This document shows positions 1-21,906 of a DNA stretch of 46,716 nt, one piece after another. Position 1 is the stretch's first letter, and every line of letters starts with the position of its first letter. Under the pieces are notes generated by a model. That model was given only the letters and a program-made list of their open reading frames with translations. It was not told the DNA's origin and made no database searches. The position numbers and the translations under genes are program-made. Source of the DNA: a phage; assembly GCA_018580065.1 (NCBI GenBank), contig GCA_018580065.1_4845.1. One strand, 5' to 3'.

Positions 1-120
1 AAAAAAAAACTCCTGTCGGAAAGCGAGATGCGCATCTCTCCGATTTCTGTTAGTGGCGTGCGATTGCTCATGTTTTGCATCCTGAATTTGACTGATGTTG
101 ATTATATCATCTCAGTGGTG

Positions 121-1806: not shown

Positions 1807-1857
1807 TTCGATCTCCGAATTGTGTTAGCTGCTAACGTGGTGATTATATCACAGGTG

Positions 1858-2326: not shown

Positions 2327-2403
2327 GGACGCGTAGCTTAATTGGTTAAAGCAACCGACTCATAATCGGCTGATTGAAGGTTCAAATCCGTCCGTGTCCA
2401 CCA
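2327..2403 (+). tRNA. tRNA with anticodon CAT (Met elongator-type or Ile2)
   Basis: Hand-folded cloverleaf: 7-bp acceptor stem GGACGCG/CGTGTCC, U8, D-loop with GG, anticodon loop CTCATAA, T-loop TTCAAAT, 3' ACCA; two stem mismatches. Confidence 0.7.
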
Positions 2404-5455: not shown

Positions 5456-5484
5456 TTGACGTAGATTGATGGTGTGTTTATAGT
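5456..5484 (+). promoter_or_regulatory. sigma70-like promoter, TTGACG-17nt-TATAGT, with two copies of the GACGTAGA motif
   Basis: TTGACGTAGATT at 5456-5467, TATAGT 5479-5484, second motif copy GTGACGTAGAAA at 5487-5498. Confidence 0.6.
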
Positions 5485-16509: not shown

Positions 16510-16553
16510 CCTGCCTCCTGCTCAAATAATAACTAATTCTATCACAATGGCTA

Positions 16554-16584
16554 TTGACGTAGATTGAGCGGTGGTGCATAGTAT
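16554..16584 (+). promoter_or_regulatory. sigma70-like promoter with GACGTAGA dyad
   Basis: TTGACGTAGATT 16554-16565, -10 candidates CATAGT/TAGTAT 16577-16584, inverted copy ATCTACATCA 16583-16592. Confidence 0.5.
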
Positions 16585-16614
16585 CTACATCAAGTGATGA
16601 GTGAGGTGATGAAG

Positions 16615-16836
16615 ATGGAAATAAAACTTAACAAAGAAAGTAATATGCTAAGTCTTACCGGGCAGGGCGAGATGGTGTTCACAAGGCTAAAAAATGGAAA
16701 TGAAACCGCAATAACAATGATATGTGAAGGAGCGAAAACTTCTGTTTCAAATATGTATCTGGTCAATTTGAAAGAGAAAACAAGGGTTGGTAGATTTCTC
16801 TCTGCGCTGAAGCATGTGTGGATTCTTGCCAAATGA
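16615..16836 (+). CDS. hypothetical protein
   Basis: ORF track from GTG 16594; ATG 16615 has GAGGTGA RBS. Confidence 0.45.
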   Translation: MEIKLNKESNMLSLTGQGEMVFTRLKNGNETAITMICEGAKTSVSNMYLVNLKEKTRVGRFLSALKHVWILAK

Positions 16837-16846
16837 AGGTGTAATT

Positions 16847-16990
16847 ATGGTAATGGTCAAATTCAAAGAAAACGGACGCTGCGGAGTGTTCGGTCTTGAA
16901 CAAATCAAAATCCGTCCGTGCGGTAAAGTGGTTGCACCATTTGGTCTGGTGCAGATGCGTGAATGTGAGATCGTGGAATATATTAAGTGA
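16847..16990 (+). CDS. hypothetical small protein (47 aa)
   Basis: Fills inter-ORF gap, ATG start; below ORF-track cutoff. Confidence 0.3.
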   Translation: MVMVKFKENGRCGVFGLEQIKIRPCGKVVAPFGLVQMRECEIVEYIK

Positions 16991-16998
16991 GGTTAGAA

Positions 16999-17277
16999 AT
17001 GACAAAACGCGAATTACACCAATTATTTAACAAATGGCTTGATTCTGTTGGTTTTGGCGACATGAATGATAGAGAGAAGGACTTGCTTTGGTTTGGGTTT
17101 TCTGTTGGATATTGCCACGACAATAACAAGACCATGCTCGCAGCACTCCAGCAGCTTCTGGAAATCTACGACGACCATTCAGGAAAAGCCTGGACAACAT
17201 CAAGCAAGCGTCGTGCTCTGGATAATGCGCGCGATGCGGTTAATAAAGCGCTGGGGGAGCGCAATGAAACAATGTGA
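16999..17277 (+). CDS. hypothetical protein
   Basis: ORF track from GTG 16987; ATG at 16999. Confidence 0.45.
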   Translation: MTKRELHQLFNKWLDSVGFGDMNDREKDLLWFGFSVGYCHDNNKTMLAALQQLLEIYDDHSGKAWTTSSKRRALDNARDAVNKALGERNETM

Positions 17278-17749
17278 TCTTTTCCGTGTTCTTAGTTATA
17301 ACCCTGAATCTGGTGAATTCACGTGGATTAAATCAAGAAGACATGGGTTTAGCGGTCGAAAGGCTGGGTCGGTAAATGGGAAAGGGTACATACAGATCTG
17401 CATTGATGGAAAGCTTTATCTTGCGCACAGGCTTGCTCTTCTATACGTGACAGGAGAGATGCCAAAGGAGGTGGATCATATTAACAGGGTGAGAGATGAC
17501 AATAGATTATGCAACTTAAGGCCATGCACTTCATCTGAAAATAAGCACAACAAGGATATCACATCCAGAAACAAAACAGGGATGAAGGGCGTCAGCTGGT
17601 ATCCTGCCGGAAATTCATGGCGAGTAAGGATATGCGTAAATAAAACACAGATTCATCTGGGCTACTACGAAGACATTGAGCTGGCAGAGCTTGTGTCGCA
17701 AGAGGCGAGAATTAAATACGCAGGAGATTTTAATTATGAAGCTTATTGA
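17264..17749 (+). CDS. HNH homing endonuclease with AP2-like domain (second copy)
   Basis: VDHINRVRDDNRLCNLRPCTSSENKHN HNH motif; GVSWYPAGNSWRVRI AP2-like; paralogous to 6787..7281; ORF track begins upstream in-frame at 17066. Confidence 0.8.
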   Translation: MKQCDLFRVLSYNPESGEFTWIKSRRHGFSGRKAGSVNGKGYIQICIDGKLYLAHRLALLYVTGEMPKEVDHINRVRDDNRLCNLRPCTSSENKHNKDITSRNKTGMKGVSWYPAGNSWRVRICVNKTQIHLGYYEDIELAELVSQEARIKYAGDFNYEAY

Positions 17750-18371
17750 TTTACTGGTTAAAGAATTACCTAAGCGTGGCGGGTGGCCTGAGGGTGCCGT
17801 TGAGTGTCAACGATTTGTTGATGAGGCAACCATTGATTTTTACGATGAAAATGGCAACTGGGATGATGACTGCTCACTTACTTACGGCTCGATAGCGGTG
17901 GAACTCGTCAGAAAGCAGACGTACCCTTGCGAGAGCGAGCAAGTAACTCGCAAGCAATACGAATCCGCACTTGCAGCATCTCAAAAGCCAGCATGGAACG
18001 GCGAAGGTCTTCCGCCAGTTGGTGAGAAAGTTGAGTTCTTCATTAATCCAAAACTCGGATACAGAAACGCCTGGAATCCTGATGCTGGCACTGAAATGGA
18101 AGTGGTTGCACACAAGACAACAACGGATGGCAATAATGTGGCAGTTTGTTATTGGGATGAGCGCGGCGCAGGAAGGTCACACTGCTTCGTACCAGAAAGC
18201 CTAAAACCACCACGCTCAGAAGCAGAGCGCAAGCGTCATGAGGCAGCAGAATCCATTGACTTTTATATGCCGGAATTTATTACCGATACGCCAAATGAGT
18301 TTTACCACGCCAAAAAGATTTACGACGCCATCGCGGCAGGTAAGATTCCCGGCGTGAAACTGGAGGATTGA
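17736..18371 (+). CDS. hypothetical protein
   Basis: ORF track from 17676; ATG at 17736 overlaps HNH stop. Confidence 0.45.
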   Translation: MKLIDLLVKELPKRGGWPEGAVECQRFVDEATIDFYDENGNWDDDCSLTYGSIAVELVRKQTYPCESEQVTRKQYESALAASQKPAWNGEGLPPVGEKVEFFINPKLGYRNAWNPDAGTEMEVVAHKTTTDGNNVAVCYWDERGAGRSHCFVPESLKPPRSEAERKRHEAAESIDFYMPEFITDTPNEFYHAKKIYDAIAAGKIPGVKLED

Positions 18372-18372
18372 T

Positions 18373-18501
18373 ATGTGGTTATTCCCGTTTCTTCTCGGTA
18401 TTGCGTGGTTTGTGATGTATATGTTTGGTGGTAATGATTTCGACGTGGTGATTGCAAATATATGGATGGCGACTAGCTTCATGCTTGCTAACAATAAATA
18501 A
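18373..18501 (+). CDS. small membrane protein (42 aa)
   Basis: Hydrophobic ORF between 17736..18371 and terminator; below ORF-track cutoff. Confidence 0.3.
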   Translation: MWLFPFLLGIAWFVMYMFGGNDFDVVIANIWMATSFMLANNK

Positions 18502-18504
18502 AAC

Positions 18505-18533
18505 CAAGCCCTCACTTAGAGGGCTTTTTGTTA
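18505..18533. terminator. bidirectional intrinsic terminator
   Basis: AAGCCCTC-actta-GAGGGCTT with T-run. Confidence 0.7.
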
Positions 18534-19433
18534 TTGCTCTGGTTTTCCTCCGAGCTTTCTAATAATTTCTGCAGCAACGCACGGATCAACATTAAAAAAT
18601 TCAGTCGCCCCATCGAAACCTGACAACCCAGCATTTAAGTCCTTTAGCTTTCTATGCGCAGCGCCTTCCGCTTTCCTTGCTTTGTAATAGCTTTCGAATG
18701 AGAACTGACACAACAAAGATATAGAAAGACCTGATTTTTTAGTTAGTTGCTGAATCCTTAGAGGAACGTTATTTGATAACCCTATCTTTATCATTCCATT
18801 TGCTTCCAACAAATAAACCATAGTCTTTTTGAATGGGTTTCTTCCTGCGCATTTTGCACACCCGTGCCCCTTGGCGTGATGGCCAGCAAACTGGCGAAAA
18901 CTGCCATGAATAGGGCATATTATTTCAACCATGCTATTCATGCCACTAAAAACTACCTCATCATATGAATATTTCCCGCCATGGGCCTCTTTGCATCTTG
19001 CTATGAAGGATTCTGTATCCATGCCGCCCTTTCCACTGCAAACCCTGCACCCAATATTCCCTCTCAAGTGATCTCTTGCTATTTGCTGGAATTCACCATG
19101 TTTTTTGCACCTTATGGTTATCATTGACAGCATTCCAGAGTATTTGGTTGGTGAATAATCATAAATATCATGGTTTTTACTGGGAATCATATCCATAAAC
19201 TCATCATGACTGTACCCGTTATGCATTCCCCTGCCGGGCCTGCACTTTCTGCATCCGTTGCAACCGTTGAGGTGATCATTTGGCGTCTGTTTAAATAACA
19301 CATCATGCTTAATACATCTGATTATTACTGGCGATTTCCTTTTGATGTATTTAGTTTCTGAATAGTCAAATTTATCGCCGTGGATTAACTTAGCGCGTGA
19401 AATGAAATCTTCTGTGGTAGGTCTTTTTGCCAT
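18531..19433 (-). CDS. T5orf172-domain (GIY-YIG-related) protein with three N-terminal Cys-rich repeats; putative homing endonuclease
   Basis: C-terminal VYLLEANGMIKIGLSNN...GATEFFNV; three ~45-aa repeats each ending GCxxC; ATG 19433 (ORF track starts TTG 19517). Confidence 0.6.
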   Translation of the reverse strand: MAKRPTTEDFISRAKLIHGDKFDYSETKYIKRKSPVIIRCIKHDVLFKQTPNDHLNGCNGCRKCRPGRGMHNGYSHDEFMDMIPSKNHDIYDYSPTKYSGMLSMITIRCKKHGEFQQIARDHLRGNIGCRVCSGKGGMDTESFIARCKEAHGGKYSYDEVVFSGMNSMVEIICPIHGSFRQFAGHHAKGHGCAKCAGRNPFKKTMVYLLEANGMIKIGLSNNVPLRIQQLTKKSGLSISLLCQFSFESYYKARKAEGAAHRKLKDLNAGLSGFDGATEFFNVDPCVAAEIIRKLGGKPEQ

Positions 19434-19528
19434 TATTAACCCCGTAGCAGGTTCGTAGATTGAGGATTGCAGCAGGGTGTCTACGTTCACCTTTTCGTCT
19501 GGCCGGACTAGCTGCAATTGAGATTATA

Positions 19529-20485
19529 TCACTTTGCCTTGTGAGCTGAAAGCCACTTATCTCTCGCTGATATCATCCTGTCAAGAGAAGATTCAAGCAT
19601 GATCACATTACCATTTTCATCTAATAGGCATGGCGTTTGACCACAATGGCACCGAAATCTATTTCCGTCCTTGCTGTAAAACTCCTCCACCTGTTCTGGC
19701 GAGTACGCCTTAGAGTGTCTGATGGCGTGAGTTTGTCTGGTTGTTGGTAATAGCGCCGACACCCAAAATAGGGCACTATTTAGCCCCAAAATAATCTTTG
19801 ATTCCTGAACTTCGTCAGACTGCGACTTGCGTAAAATGCCCGTAAGCTCGGTTTGGGCAATGTTTTTTGCTCGCGATTCACTTACACCAACGCGCTTAAT
19901 GATGTCTGATTCAATATCTCTCGGATTAGAACCAACAGCGATAGCATTCATGATCACCTGAGACAAATCATTACGTGCCGCGTCTCCAATTCCAACCCAA
20001 TCGCTGTAAGTGGAGGCATTGGCAATAGACAGGCGCTGCAAATATGGCTCAGAGTAAATAATGTCTGCAATTGAACGGCGCTCAGCATAGAGTGGAGACA
20101 TGGCTGCCAGTTGCTGTTGCGCCTCAACCGTACCAGCTGAATAGGCGTCAGAGACATAAATTGACATCCAGAACTGACCAGCATCCATTGGCTGAGTATC
20201 ATCAAGCAGTATTTCATCAATTAGCTGTTGCAGCGCCTCATTAAATTGAGCTGCCCTAGCGGCTGAAAAATCATACCTGTAACCATAGGCATCAATGGAG
20301 TTAATTGCGGCAACTGGAATTGACCTGAATAAGTCTATGACTGACGATTTAAGGCGCTTGTATCGCGCCTCAATCTGTTTGTTTGCCTTGCTTAGTCTCC
20401 TGTTAGCGCCAACAGGGTCTGTTTTGCTGGTTGGTATCTTCGGGCCAACCAGTCTGGCGCTAACCTTAAAGATTTTGATTTTCAT
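19529..20485 (-). CDS. head morphogenesis protein (SPP1 gp7 / Mu F-like, by position)
   Basis: Immediately downstream of portal gene; ATG 20485 overlaps portal stop (ORF track from 20557). Confidence 0.55.
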
Positions 20486-21869
20486 CGTCAGGATTACCCT
20501 CTGTGACGATCTGAATTTCTTCAATCGGCTCCATGCCAACCATGCCGCGAGCCTCATCGACAGTTAACAGCGCAGACTGACCAGCATCAAAGAATGACTT
20601 GTTCGCAGTGGCCAGTTTGGCTAGCAACTCCGCTTTATCCAGTTCCGATGGTGCCAGCAGGTCATCCCACTTAACTTTGTAGCCATTTTCTGGTGCTTTA
20701 TCGACAATGCCGAACTGAATCATGCGCTCAACAAACATTGAAATGACATAATCAACCCATGTTTCGCGGCGTTGTTTGGCGGTCATCGCCTCCTGCATCT
20801 TGTCTTCATCGCTTGCAAGGCGCCCTGTCTGCTGCCCGAAAATGACGGTGAACGGAAGCGCCATAGATGCAGCGAACTGGTTGGCAGCAACTTCCCATGT
20901 TGGTTTCGGATCGGCTGGCGCCACAGCGAGAACCTTTGCGTCAGCGCCCATTGTGAACATGGCGGCGTCGATGCCTGAGTTCAGCGCCTCAATGTTCTCA
21001 TTCATGATGTCGGTGAGTTCTTCGATGTCGACACCCATCGACTGAGCGAGACTTGCTGGTGTTACATTATCCTCCGTATAGTTAACAGCCAGTTGGCGGC
21101 TTGCATTCTTCAGGAATCCTTCTGCGGAGCTACCGGAAACCTTAGCCATGTCGATAAGGCTGTTGTAGCCAGCACGCAACATCGGGACGCCACTGAACAT
21201 GCTGCCGTCAAAGCTCCCCTCCGCCAGAATAATGATGCGGTCAGGGTGAATCTGCACGGAACGCTCAGGCTTGCCGTCGCTGTCGAAGTCTTCCACGGCG
21301 CTTTCCTGATATTCGTACATCTCAGGCATTCCGTAGTCTTCGCTGGTTTCGTCGTTATTCCACGCACTGACTTTGAGCTGCTCCTCCCATACCGGAATAA
21401 AGCGGACGATGGATTTATCTTTAATGCGGCGTGTTTTTGTGATGTCTACCGGTTCACTCCATTGCTTACCATCGCGGATTTGCAGGATGACGGCGGAATA
21501 GCGGTTGATGGCGTTGCGCTTGTCGGCCTCCTTGATGAACGGATAGGCACGCTTCATCATGCCGTTGATGGACAGTTCCCACGACGTAGAGTTCTTGTCA
21601 TCCTCGCCATCTTCGACCACCTCTGGGTACTTCTGCCAGCATTTATTAATAATGCGGTTAATGCCAGCTGCGGCGGCAGGATGTCGCTCGTAGGCGTAGC
21701 GGAACATCTCAGCGGTGATTTCCTGCGGGTAGCCGCATTCCGTCCAGAGTCTGTCGTGCTTCTGGTCAAGATTCTTCCCACCAGCACAAAGCCGTTGCTG
21801 CTGAATAGCCCGGTTATTGTTCGCCACGCGGTCGCGTATGTAGGCGTTTAAAGCATCAATTTTGGACAT
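20466..21869 (-). CDS. portal protein
   Basis: 467 aa, acidic C-terminus, followed by head morphogenesis gene. Confidence 0.75.
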
Positions 21870-21878
21870 ATGTCACCA

Positions 21879-21906
21879 ATAAAAAAACCCATCACGTTGG
21901 ATGGGA
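21879..21906 (-). terminator. terminator-like hairpin directly upstream of portal start
   Basis: Minus-strand CCCATC-caacgt-GATGGG followed by T7 run. Confidence 0.5.

What the first reader, a model, noticed from the sequence alone, without database searches (positions are those of the whole stretch)
18531..19433. T5orf172-domain protein with a triplicated ~45-aa Cys/His-rich N-terminal module
Three tandem repeats of the form Y(D/S)Y…I…C…HG…F…Q…HL…G…GC…C (for example KFDYSETKY…CNGCRKC, YDYSPTKY…GCRVC, YSYDEVVF…GCAKC) precede the T5orf172 domain. This looks like a modular zinc-binding DNA-recognition array. A promoter-like TATAAT and motif-like copies lie just upstream.
Basis: seen in the sequence. 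Interest (0 to 1): 0.45.

Follow-up and report, generated by a model that had tools for sequence, protein, structure and literature searches.

The report
Phage homing endonuclease with zinc-finger array
This is an ordinary member of a described class of selfish phage genes, a nuclease that finds its DNA target with three zinc-finger repeats; the more interesting part is its short upstream leader, a known orphan RNA motif that turns out to sit in front of many such nuclease genes.

Summary
The minus-strand ORF 18531-19433 (300 aa) has three tandem repeats of about 65 aa. Pairwise alignment scores are 97-107, against 22±4 for shuffles. Each repeat carries an invariant C-x2-H…C-x2-C set, and a T5orf172 domain follows. 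The model of that domain has a GIY-YIG nuclease fold, and the conserved Tyr, Arg and Glu are present.

This architecture is already published: T5orf172 homing endonuclease genes with repeated CapR/DUF723/DUF4379 zinc fingers (Barth, Dunham and Seed 2023). The local context fits a free-standing homing endonuclease cassette in a Skatevirus-like Salmonella phage:
- It is inserted to the nucleotide after the head-morphogenesis gene.
- It is absent from phage DS8.
- Other endonuclease alleles occupy the same site in relatives.
- A 42%-identical homologue sits between the portal and head-morphogenesis genes in others, and reduced seszw mutant genomes lack it.

The upstream TATAAT is a conserved extended -10 (TGATATAAT) whose TGA is the stop codon of the upstream gene. 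The 5' leader behind it matches the Rfam int-alpA RNA. In viral contigs this leader precedes mostly endonuclease genes. Its P3 loop is complementary to two downstream sites, one at the ribosome-binding site.

The protein is a new member of a known kind. The leader is the lead worth following.

The parts
18531..19433 (-). Homing endonuclease gene of 300 aa: three zinc-finger repeats followed by a T5orf172 (GIY-YIG-type) nuclease domain.
   Evidence: ORF. Pfam T5orf172, MUG113 and DUF723. PHROG 681 'endonuclease', E 4.9e-66. 1413 homologues.
19236..19433 (-). Repeat 1 (aa 1-66). Predicted zinc ligands C40, H43, C61, C64.
   Evidence: AlphaFold2 pLDDT about 90.
19032..19235 (-). Repeat 2 (aa 67-134). 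Predicted zinc ligands C109, H112, C129, C132.
18834..19031 (-). Repeat 3 (aa 135-200). Predicted zinc ligands C173, H176, C192, C195. This is the unit that Pfam DUF723 recognises.
   Evidence: A single-repeat model has pLDDT 91.9 and pTM 0.74.
18552..18824 (-). T5orf172 nuclease domain (aa 204-294). Conserved residues Y207, K216-I-G218, R226, E256, H260, D274, E278.
19523..19531 (-). Extended -10 promoter element TGATATAAT. Its TGA (19531-19529) is the stop codon of the upstream head-morphogenesis gene.
   Evidence: Sequence. The element is conserved in the three leaders aligned (window, LPST10, PHA46_2). In the wider set it is TGATATAAT in eight of nine, and TGGTACAAT in Klebsiella phage XY3. 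59 of 99 leader copies have a -10 hexamer matching at least 5 of 6 positions and ending 10-12 nt before the RNA core, 39 of them with TG; the control gives 9 of 99. The two-hexamer scan did not report it because there is no good -35.
19453..19518 (-). int-alpA RNA motif (Rfam RF02996) in the 5' leader. P1 is 19515-19511 with 19473-19469. P2 is 19508-19506 with 19499-19497. P3 is 19491-19488 with 19479-19476, and its loop is 19487-19480.
   Evidence: cmscan 37.3 bits (gathering score 35.8), full length 1-71. In RNAalifold on 42 variants, 8 of 12 pairs show compensatory changes.
19431..19459 (-). 3' part of the leader. Site 1 is TCTACG (19459-19454) and site 2 is CTACG (19447-19443); both are complementary to the P3 loop. 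Hairpin P4 is AACC (19453-19450) with GGTT (19441-19438). The Shine-Dalgarno sequence GGGG is at 19443-19440 and the ATG at 19433-19431.
   Evidence: In the set of 45 distinct loops, the cognate loop-to-downstream helix averages 5.58 nt and the non-cognate 3.73 nt. Both sites are complementary over at least 5 nt in 35 of 56 distinct variants; permuted loops give a mean of 1.4 and a maximum of 5. Site 2 abuts or overlaps the Shine-Dalgarno sequence in 49 of 52. The P4 stem averages 5.65 bp for cognate arms and 3.67 bp for non-cognate arms.
18506..18526 (.). Bidirectional intrinsic terminator that closes the cassette. The same terminator directly follows, and overlaps the end of, the head-morphogenesis gene in phages that lack the cassette.
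   Evidence: Junction comparison with DS8 and PHA46_2.
19529..20557 (-). Head-morphogenesis (Mu F / SPP1 gp7-like) gene, the conserved gene behind which the cassette is inserted. The portal gene lies at 20466-21869 on the minus strand.
   Evidence: ORFs. Annotation of LPST10, which is 93.6% identical over 18494-21900.

Best explanation
The gene is a free-standing homing endonuclease gene of the T5orf172 class.

How the protein most likely works (inferred). Three tandem zinc-finger units of about 65 aa form a beads-on-a-string DNA-recognition array. Each unit has a helix, a beta-hairpin that carries C-x2-H, and a C-x2-C at the start of a short helix, which is a treble-clef-like arrangement. The array reads an extended, asymmetric target. 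It holds the C-terminal GIY-YIG-type nuclease domain next to that target to cut the DNA of related phages that lack the gene. Recombinational repair during co-infection then copies the cassette, together with flanking markers, into the cut genome.

How the cassette is built (shown by sequence comparison). It is self-contained. It starts with an extended -10 promoter whose TGA supplies the stop codon of the truncated upstream gene. A leader of about 85 nt that folds as an int-alpA RNA follows, then the ORF. The cassette ends at the resident terminator.

What the leader most likely does (inferred). It limits or times translation. Its P3 loop can pair either with an upstream site, forming a pseudoknot, or with a copy of that site at the ribosome-binding site.

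Status of the evidence. Shown: the repeats, the domain identities, the fold, the conserved residues, the exact insertion junctions, the patchy distribution, the RNA covariation and the association of the leader with endonuclease genes. Inferred: zinc binding, DNA binding, cleavage, homing and the regulatory role of the leader.
For: Repeats: z is 18-20 and the C/H/C/C set is invariant in 69 units.

Modularity: homologues carry 3-7 repeats. Their C-terminal ends differ. The 22-protein alignment shows T5orf172-type ends alongside other, unclassified ends. JGI labels a few 'very-short-patch-repair endonuclease'. The protein at the same site in PJN025 ends in an HNH-like motif read by eye, although Pfam finds no family in it.

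Mobility signature:
- Only 8 of 117 records that match the 18400-19600 query cover at least 80% of it, that is, carry this gene.
- DS8 has the terminator directly after the head-morphogenesis gene. The junction is GGCAAA|CAAAAAGCCC.
- The same site holds a four-repeat T5orf172 allele in AB4P2 and 64795_sal3, and a one-repeat allele with an HNH-like end in PJN025.
- PHA46_2, Seszw_1 and Skate carry a 42%-identical homologue between the portal and head-morphogenesis genes. In PHA46_2 the leader plus the first 62 nt of the gene are 89.5% identical to the window and the junctions are exact to the codon.
- Similarity to LPST10 stops at 18494, the 3' edge of the cassette.
- The reduced mutant genome seszw_280S lacks the homologue that seszw_10L keeps.

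Literature: PMC10448857, PMC8096241 and PMC8263062.

Leader.
Against: Nothing here shows cleavage or homing, and the target site is unknown. Barth et al. themselves note that homing by T5orf172 genes has not been verified experimentally.

The second Tyr of the GIY-YIG motif is a Lys (K216), as in other T5orf172 domains.

On its own, the leader does not fold better than shuffled sequence (z 0.17). Its Rfam score is only 1.5 bits above the gathering score, and the ten related leaders score below it (29.5-34.3 bits).
Confidence: 0.75

Rival explanations
1. The protein is a domesticated or weaponised nuclease, not a homing element. Like ICP1 Odn, it would use its DNA-binding array to destroy a competitor (a satellite, a co-infecting phage or host DNA) without copying itself.
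For: Odn is a T5orf172 nuclease with a borrowed DNA-binding domain that cuts a satellite origin (PMC8263062). The catalytic residues are intact here. The gene has its own promoter and is independent of the late operon.
Against: The gene is patchily distributed and inserted with nucleotide-exact junctions at two different sites next to conserved structural genes. Diverse alleles replace it at the same site. The seszw homologue is absent from a reduced mutant genome. No satellite-related DNA-binding domain such as RepA_N is present.
Confidence: 0.15
2. The protein is a DNA-binding regulator whose nuclease domain is inactive, a CapR-like repressor derived from a homing endonuclease gene, perhaps acting on its own promoter or on the morphogenesis operon.
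For: CapR is such a derivative and represses a capsid operon by binding at the -35 element (PMC8096241). I-TevI represses its own promoter (PMC2988022). The gene sits at the end of the portal and head-morphogenesis operon.
Against: CapR has lost the nuclease domain, whereas this protein keeps a full T5orf172 domain with every family-invariant residue. Pfam CapR (PF21817) does not match it at E up to 1. The same leader sequence is found in front of unrelated nucleases, so the leader is not a protein-specific operator.
Confidence: 0.05
3. The repeats bind RNA, not DNA. For example, they could bind the structured leader of the protein's own mRNA.
For: The only solved proteins with a weakly similar fold are DUF4379-type components of kinetoplastid mitoribosomes. 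The gene has a conserved structured leader.
Against: Those structural matches are not significant. The related CapR domain binds double-stranded DNA. The arrays are fused to DNA nucleases of at least two unrelated kinds. The leader is shared by nucleases that have no such repeats, such as HNH_3/AP2 proteins.
Confidence: 0.03

Closest known systems
T5orf172 homing endonuclease genes with repeated CapR/DUF723/DUF4379 zinc-finger domains (ICP1 gp174, gp165 and others, Vibrio phage Helene; Barth, Dunham and Seed 2023, PMC10448857)
   Same: The domain order is the same: N-terminal zinc-finger repeats, then a C-terminal T5orf172 domain. Also shared are the variable repeat number, the location next to essential structural genes, the patchy presence among relatives, and the position at a boundary of sequence similarity.
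   Different: The host phage lineage differs (Skatevirus-like Salmonella siphovirus). The repeats are of the DUF723/DUF4379 type, not the CapR type (no CapR match). Three repeats is the low end of the 3-7 range seen in homologues. The shared RNA leader was not found in the passages of that paper read here.
ICP1 Odn (Gp88), the T5orf172 nuclease whose DNA cleavage has been shown biochemically (PMC8263062)
   Same: It has a C-terminal T5orf172 domain with a conserved Arg and a catalytic Glu. Odn E180 corresponds by family alignment to the GIY-YIG Glu, which is E256 here.
   Different: Odn targets DNA through a RepA_N domain taken from a satellite and acts as an anti-satellite weapon. The protein here uses a zinc-finger array.
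CapR of Vibrio cholerae PLE satellites (PMC8096241)
   Same: It has a related zinc-finger DNA-binding unit. For CapR, DNA binding and its dependence on the cysteines were shown by gel shift.
   Different: CapR has a CxxC…CxC motif and no nuclease domain, and it acts as a repressor. The unit here is C-x2-H…C-x2-C, and Pfam CapR does not match.
Classical GIY-YIG homing endonucleases (I-TevI and the Seg proteins of T4; PMC2988022)
   Same: They have a GIY-YIG-fold catalytic domain tethered to a modular DNA-binding region (beads on a string). They are free-standing cassettes next to conserved genes. Their expression is restrained by RNA structure around the ribosome-binding site.
   Different: The domain order is reversed: in I-TevI and the Seg proteins the nuclease is N-terminal. 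Pfam GIY-YIG (PF01541) does not match this protein. The DNA-binding modules differ (NUMOD/helix-turn-helix and a single small zinc finger in I-TevI).
int-alpA RNA motif (Rfam RF02996; to my recollection one of the motifs reported by Weinberg et al. 2017, PMC5737381, though the term was not found in that paper's main text)
   Same: The leader matches the whole 71-nt model above the gathering score. It has the P1/P2/P3 three-way junction and the conserved CUAG, CGAAAAG and CCUG junction sequences.
   Different: Rfam types it as an sRNA gene, and its name refers to neighbouring int and alpA genes. Here it is a 5' leader at a fixed distance (71-85 nt from core to start codon; 91 nt in one copy) in front of homing endonuclease genes. 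It is usually preceded by a -10 element. It extends 3' with two loop-complementary sites and a hairpin around the ribosome-binding site, and these extra elements are not in the Rfam structure line.

Membership tests
T5orf172-class homing endonuclease genes (as in Barth et al. 2023) | T5orf172 domain (Pfam PF10544, GIY-YIG clan) above the curated cut-off | tested here: met
   37.9 bits against a cut-off of 20, residues 206-294. MUG113 scores 33.8 against 22.3.
T5orf172-class homing endonuclease genes (as in Barth et al. 2023) | GIY-YIG-type fold with the catalytic Tyr, Arg and Glu retained | tested here: met
T5orf172-class homing endonuclease genes (as in Barth et al. 2023) | [quoted passage not shown] | tested here: met
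   DUF723 scores 27.9 against 20.9. DUF4379 scores 19.6, below its cut-off of 24.5. Three repeats are statistically supported.
T5orf172-class homing endonuclease genes (as in Barth et al. 2023) | Variable presence among related phages, and location next to or within essential genes | tested here: met
T5orf172-class homing endonuclease genes (as in Barth et al. 2023) | Site-specific cleavage of the cassette-free allele and super-Mendelian inheritance (homing) | not testable with these tools
   This needs biochemistry and phage crosses. According to the authors it has not been verified experimentally for any T5orf172 gene of ICP1 either.
CapR homology domain (Pfam PF21817) | Match to the CapR profile, with a CxxC…CxC ligand pattern | tested here: not met
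   There is no CapR match at E up to 1. The ligand pattern here is C-x2-H…C-x2-C. The domain is related but distinct.
Canonical GIY-YIG homing endonucleases (I-TevI / Seg) | N-terminal GIY-YIG domain (PF01541) with a C-terminal DNA-binding region | tested here: not met
   PF01541 does not match, and the nuclease is C-terminal. The fold is shared.
int-alpA RNA (Rfam RF02996) | Covariance-model score at or above the gathering score over the full model | tested here: met
   37.3 bits against 35.8, model positions 1-71 of 71, E 3.1e-4 for the whole window against all families. The default-filter gathering scan of 96 kb did not list it. Ten related leaders score 29.5-34.3 bits.
int-alpA RNA (Rfam RF02996) | P1, P2 and P3 helices supported by covariation | tested here: met
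   8 of 12 pairs show compensatory double changes in 5-25 of 42 sequences. P1 is fully paired in 83 of 99 copies despite differing sequences.
int-alpA RNA (Rfam RF02996) | Genomic association with integrase or alpA genes (the basis of the name) | tested here: not met
   In the window and in most of the 98 viral-contig copies the gene downstream is a homing-endonuclease-type nuclease: HNH_3 in 23, T5orf172 in 21, and HNH, HNH_5, GIY-YIG, AP2 and NUMOD3 in others. Upstream genes were not classified.

The most novel reading that the evidence does not exclude
The int-alpA RNA, so far an orphan motif typed as an sRNA, is a portable cis-acting leader that travels with homing endonuclease cassettes of unrelated nuclease families (T5orf172, HNH_3/AP2, HNH, GIY-YIG) in enterobacterial phages.

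It would work as a translational switch or throttle. The P3 loop pairs either with site 1, forming a pseudoknot, or with an identical site 2 at the Shine-Dalgarno sequence inside hairpin P4. This would set how much nuclease is made, or when. The strongly conserved three-way-junction core (CUAG / CCGGCCAG / CGAAAAG / CCUG) would be the binding site for an unknown factor or ligand that selects the state.
Probability: 0.4. Interest if true: 0.6.

Novelty: new member of a known kind. Interest (0 to 1): 0.35.

Why it matters
The protein matters little by itself. It adds a Salmonella-phage example to a described class, and it should be annotated as a putative homing endonuclease rather than 'hypothetical protein', the label it carries in LPST10 and ZK22. 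It marks a recombination boundary next to the portal and head-morphogenesis genes, which is useful when these phages are compared or engineered. Reduced seszw mutant genomes lack the homologue, which suggests the gene can be removed.

The leader matters more. It gives a functional context to an RNA motif of unknown role, and it offers a simple, testable model for how selfish nuclease genes are kept at a tolerable expression level. It also suggests that promoter, leader and ORF move together as one unit between nuclease families and insertion sites.

Tried and rejected
- NCBIfam gave no family.
- A sequence search of the PDB with the whole protein gave nothing meaningful.
- Foldseek of the whole model against the PDB gave no hit below E 0.05, as expected for a beads-on-a-string model with pTM 0.42.
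- The two-hexamer promoter scan did not report the upstream element, because it has no -35. It was recognised only as an extended -10.
- Folding the leader alone was not better than shuffles (z 0.17). The structure became visible only by comparing copies.
- I first read the inverted repeats in the leader as two overlapping stems. The Rfam alignment showed that the inner one is P3 and that my 'stem B' is a contact between the P3 loop and the tail.
- I considered the repeated 5-7-nt sequence as an operator for the downstream protein. I rejected this because the same sequence precedes unrelated nucleases.
- BLAST of the leader against the window found no second copy, so the HNH/AP2 gene at 17066-17749 does not carry it.
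- The MAFFT alignment of leaders is unreliable 3' of P1, so the pseudoknot and P4 were tested by cognate-versus-permuted comparisons, not by column counts.
- The Sandegren 2005 paper on Hef is not held. The relation to 'Hef-like' endonucleases rests only on one annotated tblastn hit, PTm1, at 26% identity.
- Literature searches found nothing that links int-alpA to homing endonucleases.
Full report
**The object.** The finding lies on the minus strand. The ORF runs from ATG at 19433 to TAA at 18533-18531 and encodes 300 aa. An in-frame TTG further upstream (19517) would add 28 residues. However, homologues start at the ATG, which is preceded by GGGG 7 nt upstream, and the extension would run through a conserved non-coding leader.

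**The repeats are real.** The segments 1-66, 67-134 and 135-200 align with one another with local scores of 97-107. Shuffled sequences give 22-24 ± 4 with a maximum of 47, so z is 18-20. None of the three aligns with the C-terminal part. An HMM built from the repeats finds three units in this protein, with E-values of 1e-19 to 2e-25, and 3-7 units in 120 homologues, most often 5 or 6.

In an alignment of 69 diverse units the invariant residues are one Tyr and the set C…H…C…C, and a further His and two Gly are nearly invariant. In this protein the ligand sets are C40/H43/C61/C64, C109/H112/C129/C132 and C173/H176/C192/C195. The unit is about 65 aa long.

**Structure models.** AlphaFold2 models are confident per domain. 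The whole protein has pLDDT 84.6 and pTM 0.42, and a single repeat has pLDDT 91.9 and pTM 0.74. Each unit is a helix, a beta-hairpin with C-x2-H at its turn, a short helix, and C-x2-C at the start of another short helix. That layout is what Pfam calls a probable treble clef for DUF4379. I could not inspect coordinates, so the zinc site is inferred from residue conservation and secondary structure.

**The C-terminal domain is a nuclease domain of the GIY-YIG superfamily.**
- Pfam T5orf172 scores 37.9 bits (cut-off 20) and MUG113 scores 33.8.
- A profile of the domain matches the GIY-YIG-type protein 1zg2 at E 9.7e-5. It aligns Y207, R226 and E256 with the motif Tyr, Arg and Glu.
- Y207, K216, G218, R226, E256, G272, D274, G275, E278 and F280 are invariant in 11 homologues, and H260 is nearly so.

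For one T5orf172 protein, ICP1 Odn, DNA cleavage and its loss in the Glu mutant have been shown (PMC8263062).

**This architecture is known.** PHROG 681 ('endonuclease') matches at E 4.9e-66. The protein database holds 1413 homologues at E ≤ 1e-5. Barth, Dunham and Seed 2023 (PMC10448857) describe T5orf172 homing endonuclease genes in which 200 of 229 carry CapR, DUF723 or DUF4379-type zinc fingers, often repeated, and they discuss the repeats as a substrate for recombination. CapR, a relative of the unit, binds DNA in a cysteine-dependent manner (PMC8096241).

The array also occurs with other C-terminal ends:
- Several homologues in the 22-protein alignment have non-T5orf172 ends.
- JGI labels a few 'very-short-patch-repair endonuclease'.
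- The protein at the same site in PJN025 ends in an HNH-like motif that I read by eye, although Pfam finds no family in it.

**Genomic context.** The window is a Skatevirus-like Salmonella siphovirus. LPST10 is 93.6% identical over 18494-21900, and ZK22 encodes a 99% identical protein. The gene is the last of a minus-strand run, after the portal gene (20466-21869) and the head-morphogenesis gene (19529-20557). It ends at a bidirectional terminator (18506-18526) that faces plus-strand genes.

Of 117 phage records that match the 18400-19600 query, only 8 cover at least 80% of it, that is, carry this gene. The site is occupied differently in relatives:
- In Shigella phage DS8 the head-morphogenesis gene runs straight into the same terminator. 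The cassette in the window sits exactly between GGCAAA and CAAAAAGCCC of that arrangement. It replaces the last few codons of the upstream gene and supplies it with a new stop codon.
- AB4P2 and 64795_sal3 have a four-repeat T5orf172 allele at the same site, and PJN025 has a one-repeat allele with an HNH-like end.
- PHA46_2, Seszw_1, Skate and others have a 42%-identical three-repeat homologue at a different site, between the portal and head-morphogenesis genes. In PHA46_2 the junctions were read and are again exact: the cassette's TGA ends the portal gene, and its stop overlaps the ATG of the next gene.

Similarity to LPST10 breaks at the 3' edge of the cassette, as expected if such genes mark boundaries of exchange. 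In the deposited series of reduced seszw mutants, clone 10L keeps the homologue. Clone 280S has lost it and retains about 56 nt of leader-matching sequence. This suggests the gene is dispensable, although the records themselves do not state viability. Together these are the standard signatures of a free-standing homing endonuclease gene. Cleavage and homing themselves are not shown.

**The region just upstream.** The about 95 nt from this element to the ATG, plus the first 60 nt of the ORF, are 89.5% identical in PHA46_2, although the two proteins are only 42% identical.

The same leader, or at least its 5' part, also precedes these genes:
- the alleles in PJN025, AB4P2 and 64795_sal3;
- an annotated HNH endonuclease after the lysis genes of SB28 and seszw, where the match covers the first 45-75 nt;
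- a T5orf172-like gene among unannotated genes in Klebsiella phage XY3.

Comparing these copies showed compensating changes. A search of Rfam then identified window 19453-19518 (minus strand) as int-alpA RNA (RF02996) at 37.3 bits (gathering score 35.8), full length. The ten other leaders match the same family at 29.5-34.3 bits, and no other family appears there.

**Survey of the leader in viral contigs.** A pattern taken from the conserved core (CTAGNCCGGCCAGNCGAAAAG) retrieved 115 stretches from viral contigs, and together with the earlier loci these gave about 100 distinct sequences.
- RNAalifold on 42 variants recovers P1, P2 and P3. Eight of 12 pairs are kept through changes on both sides in 5-25 sequences each.
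- In 59 of 99 copies a -10 hexamer with at least 5 of 6 matches ends 10-12 nt before the core, and 39 of these have the TG. A control scan inside the ORFs gives 9 of 99. The RNA therefore probably starts at P1.
- Where a downstream ORF was called (100 of 103 copies), it starts 71-85 nt after the core begins (91 nt in one), almost always behind a Shine-Dalgarno-like sequence.
- Of 98 distinct downstream proteins, Pfam finds HNH_3 in 23, T5orf172 in 21, AP2 in 14, NUMOD3 in 5, HNH in 3, HNH_5 in 2 and GIY-YIG in 1. At least half are therefore homing-endonuclease-type nucleases of unrelated families.
- A subgroup of 14 copies has a distinct P1 and no -10 element. The copies of that type listed precede small ORFs of unknown function. 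These may be the prophage copies after which the motif was named.

**Structure beyond the Rfam model.** The P3 loop (AACGUAGA in the window) is complementary to two downstream sites. Site 1 lies about 8 nt after P1 (UCUACG, 19459-19454). Site 2 lies about 20 nt after P1 (CUACG, 19447-19443), immediately before the GGGG Shine-Dalgarno sequence.
- Among 45 distinct loops, the longest Watson-Crick helix with the cognate downstream region averages 5.58 nt, against 3.73 nt for non-cognate pairs.
- In 35 of 56 distinct variants both sites are complementary over at least 5 nt. Two hundred permutations of the loops give a mean of 1.4 and a maximum of 5.
- Site 2 abuts or overlaps the Shine-Dalgarno sequence in 49 of 52.
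- A hairpin (P4; AACC/GGUU in the window) that encloses site 2 is supported in the same way: 5.65 bp for cognate arms against 3.67 bp for non-cognate arms.
- The same loop sequence occurs in front of different nucleases, which argues for RNA-RNA pairing and against a protein-specific operator.

The most economical reading is a cis-acting leader that restrains or times translation of the nuclease. This is analogous in purpose to the hairpins that sequester the ribosome-binding site of T4 homing endonuclease genes (PMC2988022). That reading is an inference. The single sequence does not fold better than shuffles. I also found no paper that links int-alpA to homing endonucleases.

**Verdict.** The protein is a new member of a known kind and should be annotated as a putative T5orf172-type homing endonuclease with a three-unit DUF723/DUF4379 zinc-finger array. 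The part that deserves follow-up is the promoter-leader module. It is a known but functionally orphan RNA motif that, in phages, travels with homing endonuclease cassettes and carries a covarying contact between the P3 loop and the ribosome-binding region.

Noticed in passing
window 19431-19531 (minus strand): The leader of the gene is an Rfam int-alpA RNA preceded by an extended -10. In viral contigs the same promoter-leader module precedes homing-endonuclease-type genes of several unrelated nuclease families. It has a covarying contact between the P3 loop and two downstream sites, one at the Shine-Dalgarno sequence, which is not in the Rfam structure line.
   Followed up: yes
window 17066-17749 (+): A second homing-endonuclease-type gene lies about 800 nt from the first, on the other strand: HNH_3 (E 5.7e-12) plus a weak AP2 match (19 bits, below the cut-off of 33.3). 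The true start is probably internal, near MKQCDLFRVLSYNPESGEFTW. It has no int-alpA leader. LPST10 has a different HNH endonuclease in this region, and the whole stretch 16600-18490 is mosaic among relatives.
   Followed up: partly
window 100-109 and 1842-1852 (minus strand): Two further copies of (G)TGATATAATC occur here, each with a GTCAACACC-like -35 region about 17 nt upstream. They look like strong sigma-70-type phage promoters. TGNTATAAT occurs 5 times in the window, all on the minus strand, against 1.7 expected.
   Followed up: partly
window 5460-5475 and 16550-16570 (minus strand): The sequence CAATCTACGTCAA precedes a promoter-like -10 at two places: upstream of the lysis genes and of another minus-strand gene block. 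It shares TCAATCTACG with site 1 of the leader. This may be chance (each 10-11-mer match has E of 1 or more) or a shared regulatory word.
   Followed up: no
window 2327-2403 (+): A tRNA-Met gene (anticodon CAT) is found by both ARAGORN and Rfam (63.4 bits).
   Followed up: no
L011 1501-2496 (Klebsiella phage VLCpiS13c) and L127 1501-1556 (seszw_280S): These look like decayed or deleted cassettes. In VLCpiS13c the leader follows the portal gene but only a 118-aa 'endonuclease' fragment is annotated. In the reduced seszw mutant only about 56 nt matching the leader remain between the portal and head-assembly genes.
   Followed up: partly
window 18501-18533 compared with L001 1823-1854: In cassette-free phages the last codons and the stop codon of the head-morphogenesis gene lie inside the terminator hairpin (the TGA is in the loop). 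The cassette is inserted just upstream of that hairpin and reuses it as its own terminator.
   Followed up: yes
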